A stretch of 64,000 bases of DNA from Candidatus Collierbacteria bacterium. Lineage in GTDB: Bacteria; Patescibacteriota; Microgenomatia; UBA1400; MFAQ01. The stretch lies in the NCBI GenBank assembly GCA_903884375.1, contig CAISER010000041.1, forward strand, positions 9,164-73,163, read 5' to 3'. Below, in pieces: positions 3,214 through 20,730 of this stretch (the first letter of the stretch is position 1; every line of letters starts with the position of its first letter). The notes under the pieces were generated by a model that saw nothing but the letters and a program-made list of their open reading frames with translations, did no database searches and was not told the origin of the DNA. The position numbers were made by a program, and so were the translations under genes.

Positions 3214-3639
3214 ATGTCAAGTGTTTTAGGACAAATTGGCCAAAACGTAGCTGATAATCTATTTGAATTAGGCCAGGGCGCCGTGAAGGGAACTGTTGGT
3301 GTTGTTGCAGATGTAGCTCAGGAAGCCGTAGAACAAGTTATTCCGTCTCATAACCTATCTGATGTTCAATATAGCGATAAACAAACAGGAATCGAAAAGA
3401 ACAAAAATATCGAAGACAGAAAAATGATGGAAAAACGAAGATTTGAAGAAGTTAGAAGCGAACTGGCAAGATATTCTTCATGGAAGAAAGAACAAGATAG
3501 GAAAATAGCCGAGGAAAAATCAGCAGAAGGTCAGCAAAGACAAAAAGAAAAAATAGAAAAAAAAGAAAAAGATAATTGGGTGAAAAGAATGATTAATAGA
3601 TCCCAAACATCTACAGAAAAGGGAAGATTGGTGGAATAA
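3214..3639 (+). CDS. hypothetical Lys/Glu-rich protein
   Basis: 141 aa. N-terminal Gly/Ala/Val segment followed by a highly charged KE-rich, probably coiled-coil tail. No known motif. Confidence 0.4.
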   Translation: MSSVLGQIGQNVADNLFELGQGAVKGTVGVVADVAQEAVEQVIPSHNLSDVQYSDKQTGIEKNKNIEDRKMMEKRRFEEVRSELARYSSWKKEQDRKIAEEKSAEGQQRQKEKIEKKEKDNWVKRMINRSQTSTEKGRLVE

Positions 3640-3640
3640 A

Positions 3641-5362
3641 TTAATTCACCGTGACAGTGGTCTGAGGCGAGTTTCTTTTAGCGTAAATTACTGTTTTGTA
3701 TGGAGGAATGTTTAGATCTGCAACACTAGTCGTTGTGTATGAAAATGATCCAGCGTGTGAGGCTCCACGACTTAAAGAACCACTATTGCATTTTGTAGTG
3801 GCAGTGCTCAGTGATACTGTTCTGGAATGAGTATGTGTCGTAGTGCCTCCTGAAGTTCCCGGGGTGGCATTGCCATAGATAAATTTACCATCAAGACTAG
3901 TGTATCTAGCCCAGCCAAGTGGTGGTAACACGTCAGTAATAGTAATTAAATTCGCGATACCTTTTGCATCACTATTAACAGAAGCAAAGGACATTGTTAA
4001 ATAAGGGGGTAAATTAGAATCTGAACTGGTGGTACCAGCTGTTGCGGAATGTCCGAGACCGCCACAATTATTTGCTGTTCCTCCATCAATAACACCTGTG
4101 TTTGTGGTATTAGATATGCCAACAGATGTTTCCGTGTGGGAGTGAGTGGATGCTCCAGCAGGTGTTGGTGTCAAATTATATGACGAATATAATCGAGGAA
4201 AATATCCGTTCAGATTTGTGTTGGCAGTCCAACCAGAAGGAACTGATGAGTCAAATATTCCGATAAGTCCTGATTTTATGGATAAGTCTGAATTTTTACA
4301 CAGAACCATGTCGACATAGGGAGGGTAAACGGTAATGGCGGCAGGGAAATTTATGGTATATGAATGCGTGTGGGATCCGGAGGCAACTTTGGTTGCATTT
4401 GTTGAGCTTGTTGTACTTGATCCGTGAGTAAAACTACCAGATGCTGTATGTGTATGGGTTGCTGAGCCTCCTGTTGTTCCATAAGTGCTGCTTCCATAAG
4501 GGAAATACCCCGTGTCAAAATCAGTGTTTCTTGTCCATGATGTCGGACATGTTGCAGAAGTGTACATTAAATTAAACGACCCGCTCCAGGCTAGGAAACC
4601 ATTGGTTGTGGTAACACCATCATAATCAAGATTAATGGTTTTAGTTCCATTGGGAATCGAGGGAACTCTAACCCAAATTTGAGTATCGGTTGTATTACAA
4701 CCGGATTCAATCCAATAATTAAGAGAGGTGGTATTATCAGAGTCTTTGATACGGATATCTCCACAATCTGCAGTCATGGAAGCAGCAGCTATGGGGGTAG
4801 CTGTATCTAAAGAAAAAAGAACATCGTAGTCTGTAAGAGTTGTTCCAGAATTGGTAATGGCTATATTGTTGTGGCCAAAACAGGAGTTGTTGGCAGAAAA
4901 AACATTTGCATTACAATCAGCGACAGTAAAAGATTTTGCCAAACATTTTCTTCTTTTTCCAGAGGCGGTTGCGAGAGATAAAGTATCAAGTGCGTCAGGG
5001 TAGCCATCTGTATCACTATCTACCATATATATAGGTGCTCCAATTTTGATTTGTGCTCCGGTTCCTAAATTCATTACCGCTCCTGCCTCCATAACTAGAG
5101 AACCAACGACGATAGTAGAGTTTGCCAGAGTGGTTATAGCAACATTTGAGCCAACAGTCAAAATGGCAGTGTTAGTGGTTGAAAGCTCATTGTTATTACA
5201 CTCATCAATTCCGTTTATGCTATTTGTAGCCGCAATATCACAGGTGGAGGAAATCGTATAGTTACCAGAAGCTGGAAGAGAACAAGCGGCTGCGTGGGCA
5301 GATTTTGGATAGAATAATAAACAAAATACTAATGTTAGGAAAATAATATTTATTTTTTTCAT
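3641..5362 (-). CDS. secreted Thr/Ser-rich protein with three phage tail-collar (MdpB-like) repeats
   Basis: Signal peptide MKKINIIFLTLVFCLLFYPKSAHA. A DSDTDGYPDALD Ca-binding-like motif. Three repeats of G..THTHT/SHTHS ... (N)LPPY(L/V/K) hydrophobic end, the hallmark of the tail-collar domain. Confidence 0.6.
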   Translation of the reverse strand: MKKINIIFLTLVFCLLFYPKSAHAAACSLPASGNYTISSTCDIAATNSINGIDECNNNELSTTNTAILTVGSNVAITTLANSTIVVGSLVMEAGAVMNLGTGAQIKIGAPIYMVDSDTDGYPDALDTLSLATASGKRRKCLAKSFTVADCNANVFSANNSCFGHNNIAITNSGTTLTDYDVLFSLDTATPIAAASMTADCGDIRIKDSDNTTSLNYWIESGCNTTDTQIWVRVPSIPNGTKTINLDYDGVTTTNGFLAWSGSFNLMYTSATCPTSWTRNTDFDTGYFPYGSSTYGTTGGSATHTHTASGSFTHGSSTTSSTNATKVASGSHTHSYTINFPAAITVYPPYVDMVLCKNSDLSIKSGLIGIFDSSVPSGWTANTNLNGYFPRLYSSYNLTPTPAGASTHSHTETSVGISNTTNTGVIDGGTANNCGGLGHSATAGTTSSDSNLPPYLTMSFASVNSDAKGIANLITITDVLPPLGWARYTSLDGKFIYGNATPGTSGGTTTHTHSRTVSLSTATTKCNSGSLSRGASHAGSFSYTTTSVADLNIPPYKTVIYAKRNSPQTTVTVN

Positions 5363-5979
5363 CTGATGGAAATTGTGTTTTTGCTAGTATTTGTTCCGTC
5401 GCTAATCTCAATACCGAAGGTGTAAGTCTGGTTGTGGGTGTCATCTATTTTCCAAGAACCAGACCACTGACCATCTAGGGGAGTTCCGTTGGTAAGTATT
5501 AGATTGTATGTTGGACTTTTGTTGTCAGAGTTAAGTGTTATTTTTGCGGCGGTAACCGGTTTGGTGTGATTTACATAAAGAGTAAATTTTTGTACTGTTC
5601 CAACACTTGGGTCATGTGGATCGATGACTGCCTTAGTCATCTTGGGGCCATTTGTTTTTCCTTGACTGATGGTATATGTTTCAAGACCTTTAATTATGGG
5701 GATGGGAGTTGGGGTGGCTTTAGGTTTTTTAGGAGCTGTGAGGGTAATCGAATTATTTGATATGGTGAGAGATTCGTTATTTAATATTTTAAATAAAACG
5801 ATATAGGCAACTAAGCAGATGGAAGCAATTCCCAAAAAAAAGGAGAGAACTAAAAAGAGACATTTGTTGTTGGTGACAAGATTATTCTTTTTTCCTACAT
5901 TATCATTTTTTTCTACCATAACCTCATCGGTTCCATTATCCATATCTATATTTATGACAGTATTTTGTTGTGCTGTCAA
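5359..5979 (-). CDS. type-II membrane-anchored protein, probably co-transcribed with the tail-collar protein
   Basis: Single N-terminal TM (CLFLVLSFFLGIASICLVAYIVLF) followed by a Pro/Thr linker and an extracytoplasmic domain. Overlaps the downstream gene's start by 4 nt on the same strand. Confidence 0.5.
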   Translation of the reverse strand: MTAQQNTVINIDMDNGTDEVMVEKNDNVGKKNNLVTNNKCLFLVLSFFLGIASICLVAYIVLFKILNNESLTISNNSITLTAPKKPKATPTPIPIIKGLETYTISQGKTNGPKMTKAVIDPHDPSVGTVQKFTLYVNHTKPVTAAKITLNSDNKSPTYNLILTNGTPLDGQWSGSWKIDDTHNQTYTFGIEISDGTNTSKNTISIR

Positions 5980-6004: not shown

Positions 6005-7408
6005 ATGTTAAATCTGTATAACAGTTTGTCAAAGAAACAGGAAATTTTTGTACCAATACATAAAGGAGAAGTAGGAATGTATGCTTGTGGTCCGACTGTT
6101 TATGGTTTTACTCATATTGGGCATGGACGTAAATATGTGACGGATGATGTTTTAAAAAGAACTTTGGAAGTTCTTGAGGAACTGAAAGTAAAGCACGTAC
6201 AGAACGTTACGGATGTAGGTCACTTGGTGTCGGACGGAGACGAAGGTGAAGACAAAATGGAAAAAGGTGCTGCAGCTACCGGGAAAACTGTTTGGGAAGT
6301 GGCTAAAGAGTACACCGATTATTTTAATAAGGTAATGAAAGAATTGAATGTATTAACGCCAACGGTGATATGCAAGGCAACAGAGCATATTGATGACCAA
6401 ATTGCATTAATTGAAAAAATTATTGCAAATGGATTTGGTTATGACACGGAAGAGGCAGTATATTTTGACGTCACTAAATTTAAAGACTATGGAAAAATGT
6501 TTAATCAAACGTTTGAGGATAAGACAATCGGAGCACGTGAGGAAGTGGAAACGGGAAAATATAAAAAACATCCAGCTGATTTTGTTTTGTGGTTTAAAAG
6601 AGTAGGAAAGTTTAGAGATCACGTAATGCACTGGAATAGTCCTTGGGGGGATGGTTTCCCTGGGTGGCATATCGAGTGTAGTGCGATGAGTATGAAGTAT
6701 TTGGGTGAACAGTTTGATATTCATACAGGGGGAGAAGATCATCTTTCAATTCATCACCCAAATGAGATTGCCCAAAGCGAAGCAGCCACAGGCAAAAAAC
6801 CATTTGTAAAGTACTGGATGCATACTACTTTCTTAATGGTTGATGGAAAAAAGATGAGCAAAAGTTTGGGAAATCTTTACAGGTTGTCTGATTTAGCTGA
6901 GAAGGGTTTTTCACCATTGACTCTGAGGTATTATTTTTTGACAACTCATTACAGAAAACAGATGAATTTTACTTGGGAAGGTTTGTCTGGAGCAAAAAAT
7001 GCTTTAGCGAAATTAAACAAAACGGTGATAGACCTTTCCGATGTACCGGTAACGGCAGATGGATGGTCGGATGAAGGAAGGGACTATTATGAAAAGTTTA
7101 TAATGGCCATGGAAGATGATTTGAATACCTCTTTAGCCTTATCAGTTGTTTGGGAAATGATGAAGAGCAAAATTTCAGATGGAGCCAAAAAGAATCTAAT
7201 TGTGGTAATGGATTCGGTACTGGGGTTAAATTTAGGGAAAGAGGAGATTTTGGATATCCCCAAAGAAATAATGGACTTGTTGGCAAAAAGAGAAGAAGCA
7301 AGAAAAACAAAAAATTGGGAAGCTTCCGATAGAATCCGTGATGAAATTTTGGCACAAGGATATCGAGTTTATGATTTTGCTGATGGAGCAAAAGTAAAGA
7401 AGATTTGA
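6005..7408 (+). CDS. cysS: cysteine--tRNA ligase
   Basis: HIGH motif (FTHIGHGR), KMSKS motif (KMSKSLGN) and Zn-binding Cys/His (GWHIEC). Confidence 0.9.
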
Positions 7409-8240: not shown

Positions 8241-8585
8241 TTGGAGGTTAAGATGTCAGAGCCGGTGTTTATGGACAATGATTTGGGCGGTGTAGTGTAT
8301 GTAAGTAAAAATGAATTAAGATTGATATTTAAGAATGGTGTCGATTATGTAATAAAAGTTGATACAACCGAGCTACTTAATGTTTTAGAAAATCGATCAA
8401 AAAAGAGTATTGAAACAATAAATTACATAATCGAGCCAATGTATTACGACTCAGAAGGGGCTTTGTTATCGCTTATTACCATCAAAAACACCAGACAGTA
8501 TGAAGATAGAGCCTTGGTATTCCATTGTGATTTAAAAGAAGCCTTAACCAGAATTAAAAATAAAAGTTATCCCTCTGCCATGTAG
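8241..8585 (+). CDS. hypothetical protein
   Basis: 114-aa AT-rich host-like ORF. It is the last gene before the compositional shift at about 8.6 kb. Confidence 0.35.
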   Translation: MEVKMSEPVFMDNDLGGVVYVSKNELRLIFKNGVDYVIKVDTTELLNVLENRSKKSIETINYIIEPMYYDSEGALLSLITIKNTRQYEDRALVFHCDLKEALTRIKNKSYPSAM

Positions 8586-8822
8586 GTAGAGGGATTTTTG
8601 TGGCTAAACAATGATCCGGGTGAGATAATCAAGTCATGTCGTTAAAAGTAGGCACTTGAACTATACAGTGCCACTTTTTCAATTCACCTTTTCATTCCAA
8701 CTCCCCAGACCCCGAAAAGACCGTTTGATCGTACTTCGTGACAAACTTGGTCGAATCCTCAAGGCTGAAACTCCAAAACCATTATTCGCTATACCGGGAA
8801 GGGGTGCCCCATAACTGAACTT

Positions 8823-9194
8823 ATGCAATGCACATATCTCAAACAAGACGGAAGCCAATGCAGCGCAAACGCGATGAAAGAGTCGCAGTTTTGTTTTAGT
8901 CATAACCCCGACACTCAAACGGAAAAGCACCTTGCCACGGTGAAGGGTGGAGAAAACAGCCGCTCGATTGAACTCAATCTCCCGCCTGTTGAGCTACAAA
9001 AGCCAGAACATGTTGTGTGTATGCTCGGAGATACTATCAACGGTGTCCGTAGCGGGGAAATACCGCCCAATATCGCCAATACAGTCGGATATTTAGCTGG
9101 TCATCTTTTGAAAGCCATGGAAGTTGCTAATCTTGCCGGTAGGCTTGAGTTGGTCGAAAGTGTTCTTATTGAAAGAAAGATGAGGACACGGTGA
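8823..9194 (+). CDS. hypothetical Cys-rich small protein (first gene of the element)
   Basis: 123 aa with a CTYLKQDGSQCSANAMKESQFCFSH Cys/His cluster, a possible zinc ribbon. Higher-GC codon usage. Its stop lies 8 nt before the next ORF. Confidence 0.4.
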   Translation: MQCTYLKQDGSQCSANAMKESQFCFSHNPDTQTEKHLATVKGGENSRSIELNLPPVELQKPEHVVCMLGDTINGVRSGEIPPNIANTVGYLAGHLLKAMEVANLAGRLELVESVLIERKMRTR

Positions 9195-9201
9195 GGAGTT
9201 T

Positions 9202-10767
9202 ATGTCCAACCTAAATCTTGCAACCACTGGTAAATACTTTACGCCGAAAGAGCGGGTAAAGCTCGTCATTGCGCTTCAGTTACGGATACTTGCCGAGAAA
9301 CCCAATAAAGATACAAAAAAAGACGAGGAGTCTACATTATCCGTATCAACCAGACGGGAGATACACGAGATTGTCAATTCATGTCCACAACGTCAGGCGT
9401 CGGACTATAACTTTTATGTTGACCTCAAGCAATATGTCTGGGAGCATATTGTTGATGAAATCCGAGAACATGTTCTTGCGATTGAGCTGATGAATGGCAA
9501 TATCGCTCCGCTTCGGTATTTATTGAGCATTAGTCCCTATCTATCAGAAATAGTCAGTGAGCTCAAACGGTTGCCCGTGATTGTCCAGAAAGAAGAATAC
9601 GACAAAGCTATCGTTGATGCGCGAATACACGAGCGCTCCGAAATACTGCCGCTTGATGGAGCATATGACCTTGCCAAACAGGAAGCATATTACCGTTTGA
9701 TTGGCGAAAAACTGATTGACACACCTGAATATGAGTCATATCGGGATTATATGGTTGTATTTGGTCGTTCAAAAGATGAGTTGTTTCAGGAGAAAGTCCA
9801 GTCTATCCGAAAAGATATCGATAAATATCAAAAACGAAAAGACCGTATGGGTGGTGAGGCTCCTTTCAATAATTACATTGAGCCCTATATTGGATTGTCA
9901 GATAAGGAAATAATCGAAAAAGTCGAAAAGGATTATCAGGGGTACTTTGATATTCCGGGAAAGGAAGAACATGACCGATGGGTGAGTTTAGTTGACGAAG
10001 AACGGAAACGGATTCAGCACGCGGTTGATATCGGTGCGCTTGTCAAAAAGAAAAATGGCATTGAATCTGGCAGCTATTACGACTGGAAAGACCGACGCCA
10101 GAAGTTCGCCGGAGACCCAGGCGTTGGAGACCGACATTGGAATCCGTTACATGAAGATTGTATGGAAATCGGATTTTCAGATGGAAAAGTTACGTCGGGT
10201 GCACGTGCCAAAAAAGGCGACTGGCGTCAAATTATTGCTGTGACCGTCCACAATAAAAACTCGATGGGGTATGCGGGAGATGATTTCGGTACGAAGCGAT
10301 TGGAGAGTGTCATAGATATGGTATCTGCACTTGTGCCGTTGGATGTATCGGATAAAGATTTTGACTCGGAGGAACGCAGGTTTTCTATTCGGGTTGGTGA
10401 TTATAAAGCGATGTTTCAAAAGTTTGCCAACAATACCCGCAGGGAAATACAGGAGATAGTAAATAAAATAGCGCTTATCAATGCGATAGAGGACATATAT
10501 TTTGATGGGATGCAGATTGTGGTTCCGGGTGAAATTGATGGGGTGTTGACGGTAGATAAAATGCTGCATCATGCGATGAATGTTATCTCTGAACACAACG
10601 ATGCAATCCGGGATATGATAATCAGTTTCAATAAATTGAGTTTTGGTTTCTGGGACTACAGATTGGATGACAAGGACTCATATTTGATTGACGCAAGTCC
10701 GGGTGTAGATGAAAAATGGGTTTATACTGAGCTTGAACAGGTGAAACTGAAACTACTCAGTAGATAA
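9202..10767 (+). CDS. hypothetical protein (521 aa), element cargo
   Basis: Long uninterrupted ORF with no P-loop, TM segment or other recognisable motif. Tightly packed with its neighbours on the same strand. Confidence 0.55.
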   Translation: MSNLNLATTGKYFTPKERVKLVIALQLRILAEKPNKDTKKDEESTLSVSTRREIHEIVNSCPQRQASDYNFYVDLKQYVWEHIVDEIREHVLAIELMNGNIAPLRYLLSISPYLSEIVSELKRLPVIVQKEEYDKAIVDARIHERSEILPLDGAYDLAKQEAYYRLIGEKLIDTPEYESYRDYMVVFGRSKDELFQEKVQSIRKDIDKYQKRKDRMGGEAPFNNYIEPYIGLSDKEIIEKVEKDYQGYFDIPGKEEHDRWVSLVDEERKRIQHAVDIGALVKKKNGIESGSYYDWKDRRQKFAGDPGVGDRHWNPLHEDCMEIGFSDGKVTSGARAKKGDWRQIIAVTVHNKNSMGYAGDDFGTKRLESVIDMVSALVPLDVSDKDFDSEERRFSIRVGDYKAMFQKFANNTRREIQEIVNKIALINAIEDIYFDGMQIVVPGEIDGVLTVDKMLHHAMNVISEHNDAIRDMIISFNKLSFGFWDYRLDDKDSYLIDASPGVDEKWVYTELEQVKLKLLSR

Positions 10768-10834
10768 TAAGCTAACGCAAATGTATTTTAAGCGTTCCGA
10801 GTTACAATAGGTGATAGTATAATGATTTATATAT

Positions 10835-13800
10835 ATGGCAAATACTGGCGGTGAACCGATTCCTGGCGCTTCGGGGTTTCCCACTGGGAAAGAGAATTTA
10901 TCTTCAGGACAATCAGAATTAAAATCCGCTATAAGCACCGGTCTTGATGCCTGTTTTGCTACTTTAGTAAATAAGGATATTGAGCCTCGTGATCGGGCTG
11001 GTGCAATCCGTCAATTTGAGAAAATAGTAAACGATTTATCTGGAGATGTTGCTATTATTATGAATGATGAACTTGTTCAAAAAACACAAGACCTAATATT
11101 TCAATCAATGACAGTTGACCCTGATAGATTTTTAACCTGGGGTCTAGATGAAGCAAAAAATATTTTGCAAATACTGCATCTGCCTCGGTCATTTCGTCAA
11201 ACTGACGATCGAATAAGTAGTCTGACTAGCCTGATTCAATTTACACAAGGTAGTTATCAAAGAAACAGGGTCGAAAATTTTGTAAAGCTATCAAAGCTAT
11301 TTGAAATACCTTCTCGAATAATTGATGACCCCGATATTCAACAAAAAATGCCCAGGTTAGATGTAGATTATAAAGGTAAATTCAAAACTTCACCTGATGC
11401 ATGTGCCGATTATTTGAATAATTGGTTTTCTAAATCTCAAAGATCTTCAGTTTTAGGCAAGGCAGTTCAATATTTTTGTGAAAATTATGTCCAATATCCT
11501 AGTGATAGCCCATCTTCAGGTATACATGATTTCGTTCAATTATTCTCATCAGTGCAAGACTTGTCGCTTTCAGAAATTCAACGGGTTATTACTGACGGTA
11601 TTGTTAAAAATATTGAATCCGAAGAGTATTTTCATTCAGAGCAGATCGTTACGTTAGCTACCGGATTTGAAGTAACGTCACAATTACAGCAAGATGTAAA
11701 CGCGATATCGGCCGCACAGAAAAGAATTATTAAAGAACTTGAAAATGGGAGAGAAAATTATGTTGCTCATAACGTTAACTTACTAGAAGATTTTTTTCAA
11801 TTTGGTCAAGAATTTAAATCGAGTATAGAATTCCAAGATGCCTTTAGTAAGGGTTTTGAGAAATATCTTCAAAAGAAAGCGTTTCGGCATCCAGATTATT
11901 CACCGGATGAAGAAGATGTAAACGAATGGAGATTATTATTTAATAAATTTGGTATATCACAAGAATTAAATGATCAGATTGTTGTTAATGCGATAAGGGC
12001 TGAATGCCGCGATCTTATTTCCGAAAATGAGCAGGGATATTCGAAAGGTGATGCTGATGTGGTTTTAGCGTTGACGAAGACAGAGTTTCTTCAAAATAAA
12101 CAATTAATCCTTAGGGAAGATGTCCAAAAAGATATTGTAGCGGCCATCGTGCATAAATTTGGCGTTCATGTATCGTCACAGTTTTTGGCAAAGATTCCTC
12201 TTACAAATGAGAGTTTGACGAACGAGGATATTACCGAGATTGCTAAATTAAAATTTCAAAAAGAAACACGCTCTGTGTTGTCACCTAATCGAGTAAATCT
12301 AGCAAAATCACTGCAGGAAAAATTTGGATTAGATCGATCGTTTGTGATTGAATGTTTGAGGAACGGAATTAGCCATGATGTTAATTTTGGTTTCAATTAT
12401 GACGGGATCAAATCTGCAAGAGAAGTCTTTCAATTAAGTGACGAGGAGTTTTTCCAATCTATTGCAGACGGACTTGTAATATCTACTCGTAGTAAGGAAA
12501 AGTATCATGGGAACTTGCCCGAACAATTGGAGCATTTGTTGGAAAATAGGAAAAAATATCCTGACAGCATTCCACCTGACGATATTTTATTAACTGCTTT
12601 ACCACTAGCTGTTCGAGATGTTTTAAAAACTGCGGATAAACCAAATGAAGTAATTGCTTTGAATAAATTTTATAGAACTTTAGATGGTCAGGCTGGAATA
12701 TTTGATAATAAGGAAGTACAAGACGCATACAAATTTGCTATCGAAAGATGGCTAGGGGCTGGAGATGTTTCTGCTGCACAAAAAATATGTAGCCTACTTA
12801 ATAAGGATAATAACCCAACGGTCAGTGATAGTACTTTGAAAGACGAATCAATTGGCAAACTGGTTGACGATATAGTGGCTAGATATATATTGGGAGAAAG
12901 CTCTTACGATTTACAATATGGCGCAATCCAGCTCCATGCTCTGGCTCCGTTTATTGATAGGCCGGTGAGAAATGAAGATGCAAAACAAAAATTAAATACT
13001 ATAATACTCAGCGCATATCAAAAAAGTTCCAGTGAATTAAAAGAGTTTTCTCAGCTGTACAGTGCCTTTCATCTGCCAGAAGAGGATCGAGTGAGATTAA
13101 CTGAATTATGTGTACAGACAAGTATGCATCCATCAAAAATAGGATCGGATTTGGTGAAATTGAATAATGCGTTAAACATTCTTGGAGAGCAAAATTCAGA
13201 AGCAGTTATATTGCAACGACTTCCTAAATATCTTGATACTGTAAAAACAAATTTTGCGCTTACAGGGATTGCTGAAATTTCTGAATTCGTTCGTGATCAC
13301 GAAGAGTACTTTGAATTTTTAGCGACCACTCCCGATACAGCGAGCCAATTAACACCCGAGGATATGAATTTGATAGTAAATATACCGATTGGAAAAGATA
13401 TGATTATTGCAGAACTTGCTAAACGAGATGGTATTGATCTTGCCAAAATAGAAACAGAAGAAGATTACCGAAGATTATTCACCGCGGTTCGAGGAAATTA
13501 TAAAGAATGGACAGATGAACAAAACATATCAGGTCCATTTGAAGCTGGCGCAAACATTTTTGGGTACAAACGCATGTTTGCTTATATACAGAGGGAGAAT
13601 TTGAGTTATCATGATGCACTTCATGCGTTTCAAAGTATCATTAATTTTTATCAAACTTCTGGTTTAACTCCCGATCAATTTTATGGTCAAATATTGAGCC
13701 ATGTTATGAGAGATGATGCTGTGTACAATGCGGGAACCGCTCACCATCAGTTGAATGAAATCGCAACGACACTTAACACAGATTATACTGAAAACCTAGA

Positions 13801-15745
13801 ATTAGCGAGAGAATTTTCTGATCTTGAGGGTGTTGGGGATTTGGCTACGTTATTTTCTTCACCTGAACAGGTATTCGCAAGCTGGAACAATCTTAAACGA
13901 TATAGCAAGTTGACCCAACTATTAGGAGAACGAGAGGTATTGGAGGCACTGCATGATATAAAAAATCCGAAATTACGCACGTATGTAACACGTCTTGCTT
14001 TCCATAGGGATAGTAAAGTCGATATACAAGCGGCGATCCAATTTGCTACAGATCCAATGGCATTCTTGGAGCGTGATGACGGGCATGCGCCACCGGAAGT
14101 TCATGATCGGAAAAAACCATCCAATTATATTGAAATTCCCAATCTTGACCTTACTGCACAAGAACTTGTTGAAGCCTTAGTTGATGGGAAAATGGATCCG
14201 CTCTCCGCGTTTACACCTATGGAGGTTGAATACACCGTTATTATTGATGAGGCGGCATCGCGACCGCATGAATTATTGAAACGAGCCCTTGGTGCCCGTG
14301 CGAAAGAAGGAGCGGATGCAATACCAGGTGAAGCGCGTGATCCCAAAAAACTATATTCAGAAGTTGGTCACTTGTTGAAACCAACTGGACTTAATGTCCA
14401 ACAATATCTTGCAGGGGTGGTCTTACCTGATACTGCGAAATCTGAAATCGAACAAAAACTCGTCACCATTCTGTTTAATGAACAATATGGGTTACGAAAA
14501 ACTGCGGTAAAAACCCAAACCTACGTTGCGAAAATCGGGAAGAAAAGCGATCCGGACATGGTGTTAGCCGGTGATGATACCGTTAACTGTATGCCGTTTG
14601 GATCAGGGAAAAACACGGTCTATACGTTTAATCCTAATACCGCACAATTTGTCCTCCAAGTTGTTCGACCCGACGGAAAACGACGAACCATCGCTCAAAG
14701 CGTTATCACAAAAGATATTGACATCAAAAAATCAATTCCAACTGTTATTCAACAATTGCAAGAAGAAGGCGGTCACTTAGTTGATGTGCTCCCTGAGGAT
14801 GCGCTTCTTCGACAATCTGCCATCATAGCATGCGATAATGTAGAAGTTTCTCCTAATTTTACTGATCAATCCGGAGTTATCACTGCACTCTATCGCGATT
14901 TTTTCCGGCAATATCTTGGGATTCACGCGAAAATTCAAAATTTACGGTCAGATTGCGTTATTGTTGGCGAAGGATATTCTGACGCACTTAATGAACTACC
15001 GGAAATTCCCAATACGTACGCACCACAGGCACCTGTAAGTTATTCAGATGCCACGGGATCTGAAGTGCGTACACTTGAGATGAGTGGAAAAGATCCATAT
15101 GTGATCCTTGAAAGTAATGTAACAGTTGACGAGTTACCACAAATACCAAAAGAAATAAGGCCCCCAATTGAGGGATTAGAATCACTGACGTTCGAACATG
15201 CATTACAAGTCGCCTATATTGAGGGTAAGGCATATTCAAGTAATACATCACTTATTCAATATCTCCACAATATGGAAAATGGGCTCATAGCTAAAGACAT
15301 CAATAATGCCGCAAAAGGACGACCGAATATGAGTCTTGCATATCGGGATAAAGCTGGAAAGATGCAAGGATATATGCTGGCCTACGAAGGAAAAATTAAT
15401 GATACAGATGTTGAGAACTACGCAAGTGAATACACAGAACAACCGTTTCTTTACATTTCCGATATCGCCTCGAATGTTTCTACCGGTGGAACAAATGATA
15501 CTGGATTAAGTCTCCTTCGTGGTTTTATCCAACTCTACAAACAACACTATATTGACGCAGGAAATGCAGTTCCTATATTTGCGCAAATGCGTGAAGAAAC
15601 ATCATATCGAATTGTCCAACGAGGACTACTCAATAGGTTGGTGCGCGATCTAGGTGTTGAGTTTGAGGTGGAAGAGTTGGAAACATATCAGGTAGGCAAT
15701 AGCACAATGCACCCCGTGATAATAAAACCGATAGGCGCGAAGTGA
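10835..15745 (+). CDS. giant hypothetical protein (1636 aa), element cargo
   Basis: 4.9-kb uninterrupted ORF. No signal peptide, TM or Walker motifs were seen, so it is presumably cytoplasmic. No family recognised by eye. Confidence 0.6.
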   Translation: MANTGGEPIPGASGFPTGKENLSSGQSELKSAISTGLDACFATLVNKDIEPRDRAGAIRQFEKIVNDLSGDVAIIMNDELVQKTQDLIFQSMTVDPDRFLTWGLDEAKNILQILHLPRSFRQTDDRISSLTSLIQFTQGSYQRNRVENFVKLSKLFEIPSRIIDDPDIQQKMPRLDVDYKGKFKTSPDACADYLNNWFSKSQRSSVLGKAVQYFCENYVQYPSDSPSSGIHDFVQLFSSVQDLSLSEIQRVITDGIVKNIESEEYFHSEQIVTLATGFEVTSQLQQDVNAISAAQKRIIKELENGRENYVAHNVNLLEDFFQFGQEFKSSIEFQDAFSKGFEKYLQKKAFRHPDYSPDEEDVNEWRLLFNKFGISQELNDQIVVNAIRAECRDLISENEQGYSKGDADVVLALTKTEFLQNKQLILREDVQKDIVAAIVHKFGVHVSSQFLAKIPLTNESLTNEDITEIAKLKFQKETRSVLSPNRVNLAKSLQEKFGLDRSFVIECLRNGISHDVNFGFNYDGIKSAREVFQLSDEEFFQSIADGLVISTRSKEKYHGNLPEQLEHLLENRKKYPDSIPPDDILLTALPLAVRDVLKTADKPNEVIALNKFYRTLDGQAGIFDNKEVQDAYKFAIERWLGAGDVSAAQKICSLLNKDNNPTVSDSTLKDESIGKLVDDIVARYILGESSYDLQYGAIQLHALAPFIDRPVRNEDAKQKLNTIILSAYQKSSSELKEFSQLYSAFHLPEEDRVRLTELCVQTSMHPSKIGSDLVKLNNALNILGEQNSEAVILQRLPKYLDTVKTNFALTGIAEISEFVRDHEEYFEFLATTPDTASQLTPEDMNLIVNIPIGKDMIIAELAKRDGIDLAKIETEEDYRRLFTAVRGNYKEWTDEQNISGPFEAGANIFGYKRMFAYIQRENLSYHDALHAFQSIINFYQTSGLTPDQFYGQILSHVMRDDAVYNAGTAHHQLNEIATTLNTDYTENLELAREFSDLEGVGDLATLFSSPEQVFASWNNLKRYSKLTQLLGEREVLEALHDIKNPKLRTYVTRLAFHRDSKVDIQAAIQFATDPMAFLERDDGHAPPEVHDRKKPSNYIEIPNLDLTAQELVEALVDGKMDPLSAFTPMEVEYTVIIDEAASRPHELLKRALGARAKEGADAIPGEARDPKKLYSEVGHLLKPTGLNVQQYLAGVVLPDTAKSEIEQKLVTILFNEQYGLRKTAVKTQTYVAKIGKKSDPDMVLAGDDTVNCMPFGSGKNTVYTFNPNTAQFVLQVVRPDGKRRTIAQSVITKDIDIKKSIPTVIQQLQEEGGHLVDVLPEDALLRQSAIIACDNVEVSPNFTDQSGVITALYRDFFRQYLGIHAKIQNLRSDCVIVGEGYSDALNELPEIPNTYAPQAPVSYSDATGSEVRTLEMSGKDPYVILESNVTVDELPQIPKEIRPPIEGLESLTFEHALQVAYIEGKAYSSNTSLIQYLHNMENGLIAKDINNAAKGRPNMSLAYRDKAGKMQGYMLAYEGKINDTDVENYASEYTEQPFLYISDIASNVSTGGTNDTGLSLLRGFIQLYKQHYIDAGNAVPIFAQMREETSYRIVQRGLLNRLVRDLGVEFEVEELETYQVGNSTMHPVIIKPIGAK

Positions 15746-15915
15746 GAGCAAAATTTACTTGACCATTTCGCAATAGGAGCATCTGTGTAATTAACGCAAT
15801 ACAAACTTACTGAAATAGTCGTTTTATGGACAGGTCGAACGCTGCTAGTAGGCAGCTTTTTTTGTGGCAATTTTGGCGTATAATGCGCTTGAAGTAGAAA
15901 CAACGTGGAGGAAAT

Positions 15916-17331
15916 GTGGCAGACAATAACAAGCAAATAACAGAACCACCTTTTTCGATTTCCGAGGATGAACGGAATCGGATTGTTTCTTCGATCGAAC
16001 GCAAAATACAAATCATCAAAGATACCGCTACTAATAATGATTATTTTCTTCAGATCGGGGAGTTTTACAAATATCTGATTGGGAGCGATACCATGGTCCG
16101 TTTGATTGATGTGATGTTTTCGGAATTTCGGGATACACAAGCGGAATTTGAAAAATTACGTGGACAGGTCATGGAAGAGGTGAATAAAGTTTTCAATTCG
16201 CTCCTTGGTAAAATAAAGGAGCTCACGTTGTTGTCTGATGATGACATTGCTTTGATTGATGGATATTATAACGGAACGAAAACAAACATAAATAAAGAAG
16301 AAGCAGATAGGCTAAATCGTAATGAGTCCGCATTATTTCGTGCTGTTGCTGGATTTTACTCCTGGGCACGTGGAAAATCGCAAACACTTGGTGGAGAATT
16401 ATTGGAGTATAGTTTACTTCGTGCTACAGAGGATGTGGTAAACGCACTTTATAACTCTGACCATAAAGATTTAGTCCAGCAGTACGTTCAAATTGACGCG
16501 TCAAACCCCGAGAAGCCAATGATTGTCGGCTATAATATCGCTCCGACTGAAAGCAAACTCCGAGAGGAACAGACAATATCCCGTACGAAGTTGGAAGCCT
16601 CTCCGTGGCTTGCATACCAGCGCCTCAAACTTGTACCGCTTTGTCTTTATGATTACGCAGAATTCAAGGCCAAACTGAGCAAGGAAGACAAGCTGGCTGA
16701 TTACATGAATTTTACTGGGACTATGGGTGAATTGAGTGAAGTCATGGCAGGACGGCGCACGCATGAGGCTCATTATTTCCGGCGTGAGTTATACAACTCA
16801 TACCTCCAACGCGTCACCGATAAACTGATTGATTTGATGGATGCTGCGAGTCGCATACCAAAGGGTACACTGAAAAATGTTGACGATGCACCATCGAAGG
16901 AAATATCACTTATAGATATGCCCGAACGACCGAAACAACTCCCCAATAATGATGTAAACAGCGAGTTATGTGCAAAATACTCGTTCAAACCGTCTGATAC
17001 CGGTGGTTACATATTGCGTTACGGAAATAATGATACGGTATCTTTTGGTGAAAATGATGACCTTGCCCGGATGATGCAGATATTTTCCACTTATCCCGAG
17101 CAATGGATTGATTTCAAAACTATTTTTCATTACATGGGTTTTGACTACGAACGTGACCTAAAAACAAAAAATAAACCCTTGCATAAGTTAGTGCGACGGA
17201 TAATCGCAGACATCAGGGACAAAAAATTGAACGAGAAAAGTTTGGGAGACATGATAGTTATTCAATCTGGAAAAGTGGAGCATGGGCCTGTTGGTGAAGG
17301 CTGGTACAGGCTTCATTTCGAAGCTCCATAA
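15916..17331 (+). CDS. hypothetical protein (471 aa), element cargo
   Basis: GTG start 4-5 nt after GGAGGA. No recognisable catalytic motif. The C-terminal roughly 80 aa is basic and could be a winged-helix-like DNA-binding region (guess). Confidence 0.5.
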   Translation: MADNNKQITEPPFSISEDERNRIVSSIERKIQIIKDTATNNDYFLQIGEFYKYLIGSDTMVRLIDVMFSEFRDTQAEFEKLRGQVMEEVNKVFNSLLGKIKELTLLSDDDIALIDGYYNGTKTNINKEEADRLNRNESALFRAVAGFYSWARGKSQTLGGELLEYSLLRATEDVVNALYNSDHKDLVQQYVQIDASNPEKPMIVGYNIAPTESKLREEQTISRTKLEASPWLAYQRLKLVPLCLYDYAEFKAKLSKEDKLADYMNFTGTMGELSEVMAGRRTHEAHYFRRELYNSYLQRVTDKLIDLMDAASRIPKGTLKNVDDAPSKEISLIDMPERPKQLPNNDVNSELCAKYSFKPSDTGGYILRYGNNDTVSFGENDDLARMMQIFSTYPEQWIDFKTIFHYMGFDYERDLKTKNKPLHKLVRRIIADIRDKKLNEKSLGDMIVIQSGKVEHGPVGEGWYRLHFEAP

Positions 17332-17332
17332 C

Positions 17333-17511
17333 ATCTTCGTACACTTCGTATAGTTCGTATATCTTCGGTCAGTAATTCGTATAGCGAATCCTCGTGACGC
17401 TCCAAATCACATACTTTACTATGAGGATAGCACGTGGAAGTAATGTGAGACGAAATTGAAAGTGAAGTGAATCTTCGTTTTCCTCACAAAATACTTCCCT
17501 GACAGAAAAGT
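17333..17511 (+). promoter_or_regulatory. direct-repeat (iteron-like) region upstream of the element's replication module
   Basis: Four to five tandem copies of (C)TTCGTA(T/C)A within about 60 bp (cttcgtaca cttcgtatag ttcgtatat ... ttcgtatagcg), plus GTGAAGTGAA. Non-coding and lies between the cargo genes and the replication genes. Confidence 0.3.
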
Positions 17512-17844
17512 ATGGTCACGATTTCACAAATACAATTAGTACCGGTTCGCTTTACAAACGGTTTGACGTTCTTTGCCGATTTCGTTTTGGACAATCGGTA
17601 TTATATCGGCAATGTTGCCATTTACACACTGATTGATGGAACCGGATTTCGGGTTGTATATCCGACCAAAAAACTCCCTAACGGTCAACAAATCCCTATT
17701 TTCTATCCCACAGACAAAGACATTGCCAAAGAAATACAACAGTTGATTTCTGAGGAAGCAACGAAGTTGTTGCAACCGAAGGAACCAAACAAAACGAGAT
17801 ATTATTTTGGGACAAAAAAACCAGAGATTGAGGAGATTTTTTGA
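17512..17844 (+). CDS. SpoVG-family nucleic-acid-binding protein homolog
   Basis: Pattern I.QIQLVPVRFTNGLTFFADFVLDNRYYIGNVAIYTLIDGTGFRVVYPTKKLPNGQQIPIFYPTDKDIAKEI parallels the SpoVG core (TDVRL..V...G.M.A.AS.TLD..FV.H.IRVI.G..G.FV.MPS.K..DG...I.HP). Confidence 0.5.
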   Translation: MVTISQIQLVPVRFTNGLTFFADFVLDNRYYIGNVAIYTLIDGTGFRVVYPTKKLPNGQQIPIFYPTDKDIAKEIQQLISEEATKLLQPKEPNKTRYYFGTKKPEIEEIF

Positions 17845-17850
17845 AGGGAG

Positions 17851-18276
17851 GTGAACCAAGATATGCCAAAACTAACAGCCAGCAAGCGAGTATTGCCTGA
17901 TGCCGGAAAGCACATGTGTGTGTTGATGGGGGTTTCCGAAGTAGAAAACAAGTTTTATGACCCCAAGAAGGATAAGGCGGACAAAGCGAAACGGCTTGAG
18001 TGGACGTTTCAATACGAGAAAAAGCCGGAGATGCAGATACGGGTATGGTCATCAGCCAACTTATCTATCTACAAAGGTATCAAAAGTAATGCGCTACGCA
18101 TGACGGAAGCGCTACTTGATAAAGAGCTGACGAAGAAAGAAATGGACGAGGGAAATGACACGGACAAGCTCATCGGTAAGAAATGCTTTCTCGAAGTGAA
18201 ACATTTCAAACAGGATGACGGAACGGTATTTGCTAAAGTACGGGATTTTGAAAGTGAAAGTGGAATCCCATTTTAG
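17851..18276 (+). CDS. hypothetical protein with SSB-like C-terminal tip (…FESESGIPF)
   Basis: 141 aa, mixed charge. It ends in an acidic segment plus IPF, as do the C-termini of bacterial and phage SSBs. The chromosomal ssb in this window ends DEIPF. Confidence 0.35.
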   Translation: MNQDMPKLTASKRVLPDAGKHMCVLMGVSEVENKFYDPKKDKADKAKRLEWTFQYEKKPEMQIRVWSSANLSIYKGIKSNALRMTEALLDKELTKKEMDEGNDTDKLIGKKCFLEVKHFKQDDGTVFAKVRDFESESGIPF

Positions 18277-18321
18277 CCTTGATGGTCGGACGTATTTCTA
18301 GGATGCGTCCGGCAATAAGGG

Positions 18322-20391: not shown

Positions 20392-20502
20392 GAGGCATTA
20401 CTCCGATTTCATTTAGCTTCGTTTATATGGATAAACCAGAAAGTCCAGATAGGCTGTCCGATGCATATCGCGGGATTTTCATCCAAGCATGGAAAAACAT
20501 AG

Positions 20503-20730
20503 TTGACAAACAAAGTACAGCAAAGTACAGTGGGGGTACGCATGACACAACAACCGACTCAGGACGAGTTTCTAACAATCGAGGAAGTAGCCAAGATTCT
20601 CAAAGTGACCAATGTAACGCTCTACCGAATGGCACGGAAGGGAAAAATCCCGGCGGTGAAGTTCGGCAAAGCGTGGAGAATAAGTTCACGACTCCTCGAG
20701 TCACTTCGTGAGGGAAAGAAAGTTATATGA
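20503..20730 (+). CDS. excisionase-family helix-turn-helix DNA-binding protein (candidate recombination directionality factor)
   Basis: FLTIEEVAKILKVTNVTLYRMARKGKIPAVKFGKAWRISSRLLESL matches the excisionase/MerR-type HTH consensus. The real start is probably the internal Met near 20542. Lies directly upstream of the recombinase. Confidence 0.7.
   Translation: MTNKVQQSTVGVRMTQQPTQDEFLTIEEVAKILKVTNVTLYRMARKGKIPAVKFGKAWRISSRLLESLREGKKVI

What the first reader, a model, noticed from the sequence alone, without database searches (positions are those of the whole stretch)
3641..5979. Surface module: type-II membrane protein plus secreted Thr/Ser-rich protein with three tandem phage tail-collar (MdpB-like) domains
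The 573-aa protein has a cleavable signal peptide, a DSDTDGYPDALD calcium-binding-like motif and three repeats with the same signature. The repeats are ...GGSATHTHTASGSFTHG...SHTHSYT...PPYVDMVLCK, then ...GASTHSHT...NLPPYLTMSFAS, then ...GGTTTHTHSRT...NIPPYKTVIYAK. The HTHT box and the terminal hydrophobic PPY strand are the hallmarks of the phage tail-fibre collar domain. That domain is also found in bacterial MdpB-type proteins, which may mediate attachment. A triple tandem array on a secreted protein, co-transcribed with a membrane anchor, suggests a cell-surface adhesin or host-attachment device in what is probably an episymbiotic organism.
Basis: partly seen in the sequence, partly recalled or inferred. 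Interest (0 to 1): 0.6.

Follow-up and report, generated by a model that had tools for sequence, protein, structure and literature searches.

The report
Three-in-one phage-fibre tip surface protein
A secreted protein of an ultra-small (CPR-type) bacterium carries three fused copies of the histidine-studded tip domain that phage tail fibres normally build from three separate chains. It is always encoded next to a small membrane protein that probably holds it on the cell surface.

Summary
Both ORFs exist, and the 573-aa protein has a signal peptide, an invariant DxDxDG loop and three significant ~105-aa repeats.

The Pfam Collar model itself does not match. A profile of the repeat unit does align over its whole length with the Collar-positive tail-fibre family of Pseudomonas phage Pa223/PaP4 gp60 (PDB 9NXK, a homotrimer). 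That hhalign match has probability 98.8% and E 1e-16.

- A DUF2341 domain lies before the repeats.
- Units come only in threes. In 173 related proteins, 140 have 3 and 23 have 6, and apparent exceptions are triplets split by an inserted domain.
- Each unit keeps two HxH boxes, 90-99% conserved in all three positions.

AlphaFold gives one compact body (pTM 0.77). It matches tail proteins Pas28 and Pas29 of Actinoplanes phage phiAsp2.

My reading is a single-chain pseudo-trimer of a gp37/gp12-like metal-clamped fibre tip, with variable hairpin tips as the binding face. The upstream membrane protein accompanies the N-terminal domain in 9 of 9 loci, whatever the C-terminal payload.

The module is absent from Pfam yet found in more than 5,000 protein clusters. 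The adhesin function is inferred.

The parts
6005..6032 (-). Sigma-70-like promoter match (TTGACA, 16 nt spacer, TAACAT) just upstream of gene B, inside the start of the divergent cysS gene
   Evidence: 10 of 12 positions match. The number of such matches in the region is not above chance (6 found, 9.1 expected). Only the position is suggestive.
5359..5979 (-). Gene B: 206-aa single-pass membrane protein. The start is either TTG 5979 or ATG 5943 (194 aa). Its stop overlaps A's start (ATGA).
   Evidence: The family alignment is A6. Pfam, NCBIfam and PHROGs give no significant match.
5791..5862 (-). B transmembrane segment, residues 40-63 (CLFLVLSFFLGIASICLVAYIVLF)
   Evidence: Kyte-Doolittle 19-residue mean is 2.71. 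A hydrophobic span lies at the same place in every B-family member examined. Coordinates were checked.
5362..5697 (-). B conserved C-terminal domain, residues 95-206, after a Pro/Thr linker. It is probably a small beta-sandwich outside the membrane.
   Evidence: Alignment A6 has invariant P92, G111, P112, P121, G127, D152, W172 and Y186. Only faint Ig/CBM48-type hints were found (E 0.01-0.03; PDB E above 0.1).
3641..5362 (-). Gene A: 573-aa secreted protein with four parts (signal peptide, N-terminal domain, DUF2341, triple unit module)
   Evidence: An identical protein is present on 9 public metagenome contigs.
5291..5362 (-). A signal peptide, residues 1-24 (MKKINIIFLTLVFCLLFYPKSAHA)
   Evidence: Read from the sequence. 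It is modelled as a helix at residues 2-16. Its position relative to invariant C27 is conserved in P0030 and P0035. No signal-peptide predictor was available.
4877..5290 (-). A N-terminal 'handle' domain, residues 25-162. It has short regularly spaced beta strands (solenoid-like) and conserved Cys pairs C27/C41 and C150/C161. This is the part that co-occurs with B.
   Evidence: Strands lie at 67-70, 75-78, 83-86, 88-91, 96-99, 104-107 and 112-114, with pLDDT about 90. The same domain is found on proteins with other C-terminal parts (P0030, P0035). The Cys columns are 16 of 16 or 14 of 16 conserved.
5000..5020 (-). DxDxDG[YWF] loop, residues 115-121 (DSDTDGY), a calcium-binding-type motif
   Evidence: Invariant in 16 of 16 relatives. 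The calcium-binding role is inferred from the known DxDxDG motif class (my own knowledge).
4607..4876 (-). DUF2341 domain, residues 163-252, with conserved C200/C222
   Evidence: Pfam PF10102 E 1.9e-13, 51.1 bits against a cutoff of 23.4. The beta strands have pLDDT 90-95. DUF2341 precedes the triple module in 33 of 44 related proteins.
4289..4597 (-). Unit 1, residues 256-358. His boxes are H303/H305 and H331/H333. The hairpin is 306-315 / 328-338 and its tip is 316-327. The unit-1-specific Cys pair is C272/C355.
3971..4288 (-). Unit 2, residues 359-464. The first His box is H407/H409. The second box is degenerate: H438 is present but position 440 is Ala. The tip is 424-437.
3665..3970 (-). 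Unit 3, residues 465-566. The first His box is H510/H512. The second box is degenerate: H536 is present but position 538 is Gly. The tip is 525-535.

Best explanation
A and B form a two-gene surface cassette.

**Protein A.** After Sec export and signal-peptide cleavage, A consists of three parts:
- a disulfide-stabilised N-terminal beta-solenoid 'handle' carrying a DxDxDG calcium-type loop;
- a DUF2341 beta-sandwich;
- a C-terminal module made of three fused copies of the C-terminal domain of Collar-type phage tail fibres.

**The module.** In phages that domain works only as a homotrimer. Each chain adds a collar subdomain and a beta-hairpin, and HxH boxes from the three chains meet on the axis to clamp a metal ion. 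Here the three 'chains' are joined in one polypeptide and fold as a pseudo-trimer. The three hairpins would pack into a six-stranded needle held by a complete His6 site at its base (H303/305, H407/409, H510/512). A second, partly decayed site lies nearer the tip (H331/333, H438, H536). The three variable hairpin tips together would form the distal, asymmetric ligand-binding face. The module would then act as a receptor-binding (adhesin) head, as fibre tips do in phages.

**Protein B.** B is a single-pass membrane protein whose outer domain holds A's N-terminal handle and so keeps A on the cell surface.

**Shown:** the domain layout, homology to trimeric fibre domains, the rule of three, histidine conservation, a compact predicted fold, and the linkage between B and the N-terminal domain.

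**Inferred:** the pseudo-threefold packing and metal sites (model coordinates could not be read), B's orientation and its binding to A, and the ligand-binding role.
For: **Homology to trimeric fibre domains**
- The unit profile A2 finds Pa223 gp60 (9nxk_A) in the PDB at E 0.009, colinear over both halves.
- hhalign of A2 against the gp60 family A4 gives probability 98.8%, E 1e-16, 101 of 105 columns.
- 35 of 39 members of A4 hit Pfam Collar.
- gp60 is a homotrimer whose residues 124-215 resemble the T4 gp37 tip (10.1101/2025.06.11.659172).
- T4 gp37 binds iron through HxH pairs in octahedral sites (PMC11705849).

**Rule of three**
- Among 173 related proteins, 140 have exactly 3 full units and 23 have 6.
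- Runs of adjacent units are 169 triplets and 5 sextets.
- The '2+2' cases are triplets with a domain inserted inside unit 2.

**Histidines**
- In 178 triplets the four His positions are 90-99% conserved in each of units 1, 2 and 3.

**Differentiated positions**
- Unit 1 has its own Cys pair and unit 3 has PPLGW, both conserved across the family.

**Structure prediction**
- The module alone is predicted as one body: pTM 0.77, with 157 of 321 residues at pLDDT >= 90 and low confidence only in the three tips and the C-terminal tail.
- The whole module matches BFVD models of phage phiAsp2 Pas29 and Pas28 at E 1e-14 and 7e-14, TM 0.60 and 0.54.
- Each of those phage proteins has three units. They lie in the tail gene block, and the depositors marked Pas29 as a possible receptor-recognising protein with HXHY motifs.

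**Hairpin tips**
- The tips are the most variable parts of the mature protein: 2.3-2.5 bits against 1.0-1.2 for the collar parts.
- In relatives the tip of unit 2 carries inserted Gly_rich_2 domains.

**Link between B and the N-terminal domain**
- A B-family gene lies directly upstream in 9 of 9 loci with A's N-terminal domain. Two of those have a different C-terminal payload.
- It is absent from 2 of 2 loci whose proteins lack that domain.
Against: - I could not read the model coordinates or the predicted aligned error. The convergence of the six histidines and the pseudo-threefold packing are therefore inferred from pTM, counts and homology, not measured.
- The Pfam Collar HMM does not match.
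- In this protein the second His site has only 4 of its 6 histidines. That site may not bind metal here.
- Tip variability could simply reflect weak constraint.
- No adhesion, pilus or host-interaction genes lie nearby.
- No ligand is known, and no experiment exists for any member.
- B's topology is not settled by the positive-inside rule, because charges flank both sides of the span.
- B's outer domain matches nothing known.
Confidence: 0.55

Rival explanations
1. A is a conventional homotrimeric fibre. Three A chains would associate, and each of the three units would form its own trimeric collar-plus-needle with the same unit of the other two chains. The result would be three stacked trimeric knobs rather than one single-chain pseudo-trimer.
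For: The homologous phage domain is an obligate homotrimer. Phage fibres often repeat domains along a trimeric shaft (my own knowledge). I could not inspect inter-unit contacts in the models.
Against: - A trimeric fibre has no reason to carry exactly 3 or 6 units, yet 163 of 173 proteins do, and the rest are split triplets or fragments.
- The three positions have distinct, family-wide signatures.
- A monomer prediction gives pTM 0.77 with pLDDT above 90. Intertwined homotrimers modelled as single chains usually do not reach this (the general point is my own knowledge).
- The upstream domains (solenoid, DUF2341) show no coiled coil or other trimerisation element.
Confidence: 0.15
2. The triple module is a rigid, metal-stapled structural element of the cell envelope, such as a spacer or an S-layer-like component. 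It would have no specific ligand, and the variable tips would be unconstrained loops.
For: - In phage fibres the HxH-metal needle mainly gives rigidity (my own knowledge; PMC11705849).
- The module sits inside giant multidomain surface proteins next to Ig, fn3 and LamG domains, where it could be a spacer.
- No ligand or adhesion neighbours are known.
Against: - In A the module is the terminal domain, not an internal spacer.
- The phage counterparts sit in receptor-recognition positions.
- Relatives insert extra domains exactly at the hairpin tip, which suggests an exposed working end.
- Variability is concentrated at the tips.
Confidence: 0.2
3. The pair is phage-derived cargo, for example a prophage tail-fibre gene with its assembly chaperone, and not a cellular surface system.
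For: The unit is homologous to phage fibre domains, and the whole module occurs in phiAsp2 tail genes. Small genes next to fibre genes are often chaperones (my own knowledge).
Against: - The pair lies between recR/ybaB/dnaX and cysS, with conserved synteny in a relative at 57% identity.
- No phage structural genes are adjacent, and PHROGs gives no hit for A or B.
- A has a Sec signal peptide and conserved disulfide cysteines, and B has a membrane span. None of these is typical of virion proteins or fibre chaperones.
- B follows the N-terminal domain, not the fibre-like module.
Confidence: 0.05

Closest known systems
Tail fibre gp60 of Pseudomonas phages Pa223/PaP4 (Bruynoghevirus), PDB 9NXK; borderline Pfam Collar PF07484, often annotated 'microcystin-dependent protein'
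   Same: It has the same order of motifs in one unit: hydrophobic strand, P-x-G-W, F-P-x-G, G-G, HxH, about 25-40 residues, HxH, N-x-P-P-[YF], hydrophobic strand. The profile-profile match covers the whole unit (probability 98.8%, E 1e-16), and the PDB profile hit has E 0.009.
   Different: gp60 has one unit per chain and forms a homotrimer on a virion. A has three units in one secreted chain. A's unit lacks the roughly 20-residue stretch between GW and FPxG and the 'LTxxQxPxHxH' stretch. A does not reach the Pfam Collar threshold.
Receptor-binding tips of T4 long and short tail fibres (gp37, PDB 2XGF; gp12, PDB 1H6W/1OCY)
   Same: The topology is collar, ascending strand, tip, descending strand, and back to the collar. 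HxH boxes on the strands are known to coordinate Fe (gp37) or Zn (gp12) with six histidines from three chains (PMC11705849; the gp12 details are my own knowledge). Pa223 gp60 residues 124-215 are described as resembling the gp37 tip.
   Different: I made no direct sequence or fold comparison with gp37 or gp12. gp37 has seven metal sites and a long needle, whereas A would have at most two. The T4 proteins are homotrimers that need chaperones.
Pas28 and Pas29 of Actinoplanes phage phiAsp2 (NC_005885)
   Same: These are the only named proteins found that carry the whole three-unit module in one chain. Foldseek gives E 1e-14 and 7e-14 with TM 0.60 and 0.54. The unit HMM finds three units in each. 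They sit in the tail gene block, and Pas29 is annotated as a possible receptor-recognising protein with HXHY motifs.
   Different: They are virion tail proteins of 936 and 1291 aa with longer hairpins and more His boxes per unit. They have no DUF2341, no Sec signal and no B-like partner. Sequence identity is about 20%.
DUF2341 (PF10102) surface proteins of Patescibacteria, DPANN archaea and archaeal type IV pilus loci
   Same: A has a bona fide DUF2341 domain. 33 of 44 proteins with the triple module have DUF2341 just before it. DUF2341 is reported in giant Patescibacteria surface proteins and in adhesin-like proteins of archaeal pilus loci (PMC11809585, PMC4858521).
   Different: Those papers do not describe the triple His-box module. 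A is small (573 aa) and is not in a pilus locus.
PAAR-repeat spike-tip proteins (working analogy only)
   Same: A single chain with three internal repeats folds with pseudo-threefold symmetry in a system otherwise built from trimers, and it binds a metal on the axis (my own knowledge; the T4/P2 spike-tip papers appeared).
   Different: No homology is claimed or was tested. PAAR caps a spike and has a different fold and motif.

Membership tests
Pfam Collar (PF07484, Phage Tail Collar Domain) | Match to the family HMM at or above the gathering score (24 bits) | tested here: not met
   There is no hit to A at E <= 1. None of 44 related triple-module proteins hits at E <= 0.001. One distant relative (P0040) scores 12.3 bits, E 0.17.
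Pfam Collar (PF07484), superfamily-level homology | Significant profile-profile similarity to a family whose members match Collar | tested here: met
   hhalign of A2 against A4 gives probability 98.8%, E 1e-16, 101 columns. 35 of 39 A4 members hit Collar, best E 2e-8.
gp37/gp12-type metal-binding trimeric fibre tip | HxH boxes on both strands of a long beta-hairpin that leaves and returns to a collar subdomain | tested here: met
   The boxes lie at 303/305 and 331/333, 407/409 and 438, and 510/512 and 536. They flank predicted hairpins 306-315/328-338, 413-424/..., and 513-524/533-543. Family-wide conservation is 90-99%.
gp37/gp12-type metal-binding trimeric fibre tip | Three copies arranged around a threefold axis so that six histidines surround one metal ion | not testable with these tools
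   Model coordinates and PAE are not returned. Support is indirect: pTM 0.77, the rule of three, and a TM 0.60 match to the phiAsp2 models.
gp37/gp12-type metal-binding trimeric fibre tip | Bound Fe or Zn | not testable with these tools
   This needs purified protein and metal analysis.
DUF2341 (PF10102) | Match to the family HMM above the gathering score (23.4 bits) | tested here: met
   51.1 bits, E 1.9e-13, residues 199-250, profile positions 1-53 of 84.
Sec-exported protein with signal peptidase I site | Positive n-region, hydrophobic core, small-x-small site before the mature end | tested here: inconclusive
   All three features are visible in the sequence and conserved in relatives, but no predictor was run. 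The conserved A-A-C after the site does not fit the PROSITE lipobox rule as I recall it: His at -4, and Lys within the six residues before.
Type II (N-in, C-out) single-pass membrane protein (B) | One hydrophobic span and no cleavable signal | tested here: met
   Kyte-Doolittle mean 2.71 at residues 40-58. The same feature occurs in all B-family members.
Type II (N-in, C-out) single-pass membrane protein (B) | Orientation with the C-terminal domain outside | tested here: inconclusive
   Positive charges occur on both sides of the span across the family. The orientation is inferred from the Pro/Thr linker and the secreted partner.
Phage or prophage structural gene | Match to phage protein families and a phage gene neighbourhood | tested here: not met
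   PHROGs gives no hit. tblastn of the module against 50,697 phage records finds nothing. The neighbours are housekeeping genes and synteny is conserved.

The most novel reading that the evidence does not exclude
The three-unit His-box module is a previously undescribed, very widespread single-chain version of the trimeric phage fibre tip. Ultra-small episymbionts (CPR bacteria and DPANN archaea) and some phages would use it as a receptor-binding head. Because its three tip loops are encoded separately, they can diverge and even host inserted domains. That gives an asymmetric binding face that a homotrimer cannot have. In the A-type subfamily the head is mounted on a new two-gene display system: a B membrane protein plus an N-terminal handle. 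The same system also carries other payloads.
Probability: 0.45. Interest if true: 0.75.

Novelty: new variant of a known kind. Interest (0 to 1): 0.6.

Why it matters
How CPR and DPANN cells recognise and hold on to their hosts is largely unknown. Their large surface proteins are mostly unannotated.

This finding gives a concrete structural reading for one recurrent, unannotated block in those proteins: more than 5,000 clusters at 50% identity, not in Pfam. It is a phage-type receptor-binding tip compressed into one chain. A 573-aa member like this one is small enough to express, test for metal content and solve.

A single-chain fibre tip would also interest phage and protein engineers. It removes the need for trimer assembly and allows three independently designable loops.

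The strict B-handle pairing points to a simple surface-display cassette that could be tested directly.

Tried and rejected
**Searches that found nothing**
- Direct HMM scans of A and B found only DUF2341 in A. Pfam, NCBIfam and PHROGs were used.
- phmmer of A against PDB sequences gave only noise.
- Foldseek of the full-length and module-only models against the PDB gave no hit below E 0.1. The top rows were long-hairpin pore formers at chance level.
- tblastn of the module against the phage collection found no match, probably because of low-complexity masking and about 20% identity.

**Runs that were uninformative**
- The single-protein scan of GTDB genomes picked up only the DUF2341 part, in DPANN and CPR genomes. 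It did not find the source genome.
- The listing of cluster members gave almost no names.
- A literature search on 'MdpB' returned only unrelated dental and chemical papers.
- 'tail collar' combined with 'Patescibacteria' returned nothing.

**B's outer domain**
- The B-family profile against the PDB and Pfam gave only insignificant Ig/CBM-type hints.

**Ideas rejected**
- Lipoprotein anchoring of A through C27: the lipobox rule is not met, and C27 pairs with the invariant C41.
- Prophage origin: the context is housekeeping genes and there is a Sec signal.
- A second copy of the module in the window: none was found.
Full report
**1. What is in the sequence**

Two overlapping minus-strand ORFs fill the reported interval.
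- B runs 5359-5979 and is 206 aa from a TTG start. Public gene calls use ATG 5943, giving 194 aa.
- A runs 3641-5362 and is 573 aa. B's stop overlaps A's start (ATGA).

The pair lies between recR/ybaB/dnaX on one side and cysS on the other. An identical protein A occurs on 9 metagenome contigs with the same neighbours. A relative with 57% (A) and 75% (B) identity keeps the same synteny.

A begins with a typical Sec signal, MKKINIIFLTLVFCLLFYPKSAHA|AAC. I had no predictor, so this is a reading of the sequence. It is supported by the same layout in two divergent proteins that share the N-terminal domain.

The DSDTDGY loop is D-x-D-x-D-G-[YWF], invariant in 16 of 16 relatives. Four Cys pairs are conserved, as expected for an extracytoplasmic protein: 27/41, 150/161, 200/222 and 272/355.

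Thr+Ser is 28% overall and 32% in the C-terminal half.

The three repeats (256-358, 359-464, 465-566) are significantly alike. Pairwise BLASTP gives E 2e-7, 3e-5 and 5e-9, and HMM domain E-values are 1e-25 to 1e-30.

**2. Domain searches**

Pfam finds only DUF2341 in A (residues 199-250, E 1.9e-13). It finds no Collar hit even at E <= 1. NCBIfam and PHROGs find nothing for A, and B has no significant match. I did not stop there, because the order of motifs in each unit is distinctive.

**3. The family and the rule of three**

The word-indexed search found 43 relatives. The named ones come from Woesebacteria, Dojkabacteria, Saccharibacteria and Microgenomates. In every relative that carries the repeats, a unit HMM found 3 or 6 units.

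An exhaustive HMMER search with a 43-unit profile (A2) found these counts of representative proteins:

| E-value limit | Proteins |
|---|---|
| <= 1e-3 | 5,033 |
| <= 1e-10 | 1,934 |
| <= 1e-30 | 507 |

Some of these proteins are up to 6,510 aa long. One 5,808-aa member is a 'DUF2341 domain-containing protein' of a Woesearchaeota archaeon.

In 173 proteins that I could analyse:
- 140 have exactly 3 full units and 23 have 6.
- Runs of adjacent units are 169 triplets and 5 sextets.
- The '2+2' patterns are triplets in which unit 2 is interrupted, around model positions 70-87, by an insertion of 125-628 aa.
- Three insertions that I scanned are Pfam Gly_rich_2 domains.

In 178 clean triplets, the four histidine positions (two HxH boxes per unit) are 90-99% conserved in each of units 1, 2 and 3. 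The three positions also carry their own conserved signatures: a Cys pair only in unit 1, and PPLGW in unit 3. The triplet is therefore an old, differentiated and obligatory unit of three.

**4. Homology to phage fibre tips**

The unit profile searched against all PDB sequences returned one meaningful hit, 9nxk_A, 'Tail fibers protein'. The E-value was 0.009, and two colinear segments covered both halves of the unit.

9NXK is gp60 of Pseudomonas phage Pa223. [quoted passage not shown]

I took the gp60 sequence from phage PaP4. It reads ...IPAGWKLCNG...FPWG...GTRGGSAN...PSHTHT...GQTHNH...GNIPPFCSVFFIIKN. This is the same motif order as A's units.
- A 61-aa piece of gp60 hits Pfam Collar at 24.5 bits, against a cutoff of 24.
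- In an alignment of 39 gp60 relatives (A4), 35 hit Collar, and several are named 'microcystin-dependent protein' by their source.
- Profile-profile comparison of the units (A2) with that family (A4) gives probability 98.8%, E 1e-16, and 101 aligned columns spanning the whole unit.

A's units are therefore diverged, shortened homologues of the C-terminal domain of Collar-type trimeric tail fibres. They are not members by Pfam's own threshold.

**5. Structure**

| Model | Mean pLDDT | pTM | Low-confidence regions |
|---|---|---|---|
| Full length (27-sequence alignment) | 82.4 | 0.65 | three hairpin tips (316-326, 424-432, 526-533) and a linker (151-160) |
| Module alone (residues 253-573) | 79.5 | 0.77 | the three tips and the last four residues |

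In the full-length model each unit shows short strands, a long beta-hairpin whose base and return strand carry the His boxes, and a final strand after PPY. In the module-only model 157 of 321 residues have pLDDT >= 90.

A pTM of 0.77 for a 321-residue chain that contains about 20% floppy loops implies a confident mutual arrangement of the three units. The tool returns no coordinates, so I could not measure it.

Foldseek against the PDB found nothing significant for either model. A single chain cut from an intertwined trimer would be a poor match to a one-chain three-unit body, but this is still a missing confirmation.

Against predicted viral structures the module matched Pas29 and Pas28 of Actinoplanes phage phiAsp2. 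The E-values were 1e-14 and 7e-14, with TM 0.60 and 0.54 normalised to the query. The third hit was a 'Phage tail collar domain containing protein' at E 0.11.

Pas28 and Pas29 lie next to a tail protein gene in the tail gene block. The depositors noted Pas29 as a 'possible receptor recognizing protein; contains HXHY motifs; similar to phage TuIa tail fiber'. My unit HMM finds three units in each of them.

**6. Mechanism proposed**

In T4 gp37 the HxH pairs of three chains coordinate iron ions octahedrally along the needle (PMC11705849). T4 gp12 binds zinc the same way (my own knowledge).

A homologous domain that always occurs in threes within one chain, and keeps two HxH boxes in every copy, is most simply read as a single-chain pseudo-trimer with two His6 sites. 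In the window protein:
- The basal site is complete: H303/305, H407/409 and H510/512.
- The site nearer the tip has lost two histidines, now A440 and G538. The closest relative has lost one.

The hairpin tips are the most variable parts of the mature protein, at 2.3-2.5 bits against 1.0-1.2 for the collar parts and DUF2341. They are also where relatives insert extra domains. This places the working end there, as in phage fibre tips. The ligand is unknown, and the adhesin role is an inference from the phage counterparts and the extracellular setting.

**7. The partner B**

B has one hydrophobic span (residues 40-63), a Pro/Thr linker and a conserved domain of about 110 aa with no known relatives.

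A B-family gene lies immediately upstream, overlapping by 4 bp or within 15 bp, in 9 of 9 loci whose downstream protein carries A's N-terminal domain:
- the window itself;
- P0002, P0008, P0006, P0014, P0023 and P0004;
- P0035 (N-terminal domain plus a Hint domain) and P0030 (N-terminal domain plus a Cys/Gly-rich part), which have no collar units.

B-family HMM E-values for the upstream genes tested with it range from 7e-25 to 6e-95, and the closer relatives were matched by BLASTP. The loci are described.

Two Dojkabacteria homologues start at DUF2341 and lack the N-terminal domain. They have no B gene anywhere in the 13-14 kb that I fetched.

B therefore travels with the N-terminal 'handle', not with the fibre-like head. 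That fits an anchor or display role. Physical binding and B's orientation remain untested.

**8. Context of the module elsewhere**

Of 44 representative proteins with the module:

| Pfam family | Proteins |
|---|---|
| DUF2341 (just before the module) | 33 |
| Ig_Rha78A_N | 19 |
| Gly_rich_2 | 6 |
| fn3 | 5 |
| Laminin_G_3 | 4 |
| Collar | 0 |

Single cases carry Kelch, sialidase N-terminal, Gp53-like_C or Ig_J_second domains.

DUF2341 has been noted in giant Patescibacteria surface proteins (PMC11809585) and in adhesin-like proteins of archaeal pilus loci (PMC4858521). None of the homologue loci I inspected contains pilus or known adhesion genes.

**9. Verdict**

The best explanation is a single-chain, metal-clamped pseudo-trimer acting as a binding head, displayed through B (confidence about 0.55). 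The main gaps are the unmeasured geometry and the lack of any experiment.

I rate it a new variant of a known kind. The domain type is known from phages. The obligate three-in-one form, its wide use in CPR and DPANN surface proteins, and the B-handle cassette appear to be undescribed in the libraries and papers I could search.

Noticed in passing
window 8241-22382: This stretch looks like an integrated mobile element. It has four ORFs with no Pfam match (114, 123, 521 and 1636 aa), then a Prim-Pol/PriCT primase (18322-20391) and a large serine recombinase (20727-22382). In the syntenic relative (L003/L004) the 521-aa and 1636-aa genes are missing, and a YchF GTPase gene follows soon after the GIY-YIG gene instead.
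   Followed up: partly
relatives P0022, P0055, P0058, P0063, P0076, P0094, P0103, P0109, P0110, P0112, P0123, P0124, P0131, P0148: The hairpin of unit 2 is interrupted by an inserted domain of 125-628 aa. The three insertions I scanned are Pfam Gly_rich_2 (PF21722) domains (E 1e-15 to 8e-9). A glycine-rich domain mounted on the tip of a gp37-like needle recalls the gp38 adhesin on T2/S16-type fibre tips. I did not test any relationship.
   Followed up: partly
L012 4001-5035 (P0035) and L014 2501-3454 (P0030): A's N-terminal handle domain, with its signal peptide, AAC start and DxDxDG loop, also occurs on proteins with quite different C-terminal parts. One is a Hint/PT-HINT domain and the other is a Cys/Gly-rich region. 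Each has a B-family gene directly upstream. The B-plus-handle pair therefore looks like a general display cassette with exchangeable payloads.
   Followed up: partly
window 4043-4045 and 3749-3751 (A residues 440 and 538): The second histidine of the distal HxH box is replaced by Ala in unit 2 and by Gly in unit 3. These positions are His in 98-99% of 178 triplets. The closest relative (P0002) has lost the unit-2 one only. The distal metal site seems to be decaying in this lineage.
   Followed up: partly
L007 7756-8804 and L016 4275-5335: In two relatives the B-A cassette is followed directly by VKOR and DsbA-type thioredoxin genes, which form disulfide bonds. That fits the four conserved Cys pairs of A. 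No such genes lie next to the cassette in the window.
   Followed up: no
window 5943-5979: The start of gene B is ambiguous. The longest ORF starts at TTG 5979, while public gene calls start at ATG 5943. The 12 extra residues (TAQQNTVINIDM) are conserved in the 75%-identical relative, where the call starts at the upstream TTG. No clear Shine-Dalgarno sequence precedes either start.
   Followed up: partly
window 3214-3639 (+): A 141-aa Lys/Glu-rich ORF converges on gene A and ends one base from A's stop codon, so there is no room for a terminator between them. A gene of 141-148 aa is called at the same place in the relatives. It has no Pfam hit on record.
   Followed up: no
loci L018-L047 (GTDB genome scan): The DUF2341 core motif (NYWIESGC-like) is very common in DPANN archaea, with several copies per genome. 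The lineages include Aenigmatarchaeota, Nanopusillaceae, Pacearchaeota and Nanobdellati. It also occurs in CPR bacteria and Archaeoglobus.
   Followed up: no
window 32166-32248 (-): This is the only Rfam match in the window at gathering threshold. It is a tRNA gene (58 bits).
   Followed up: no
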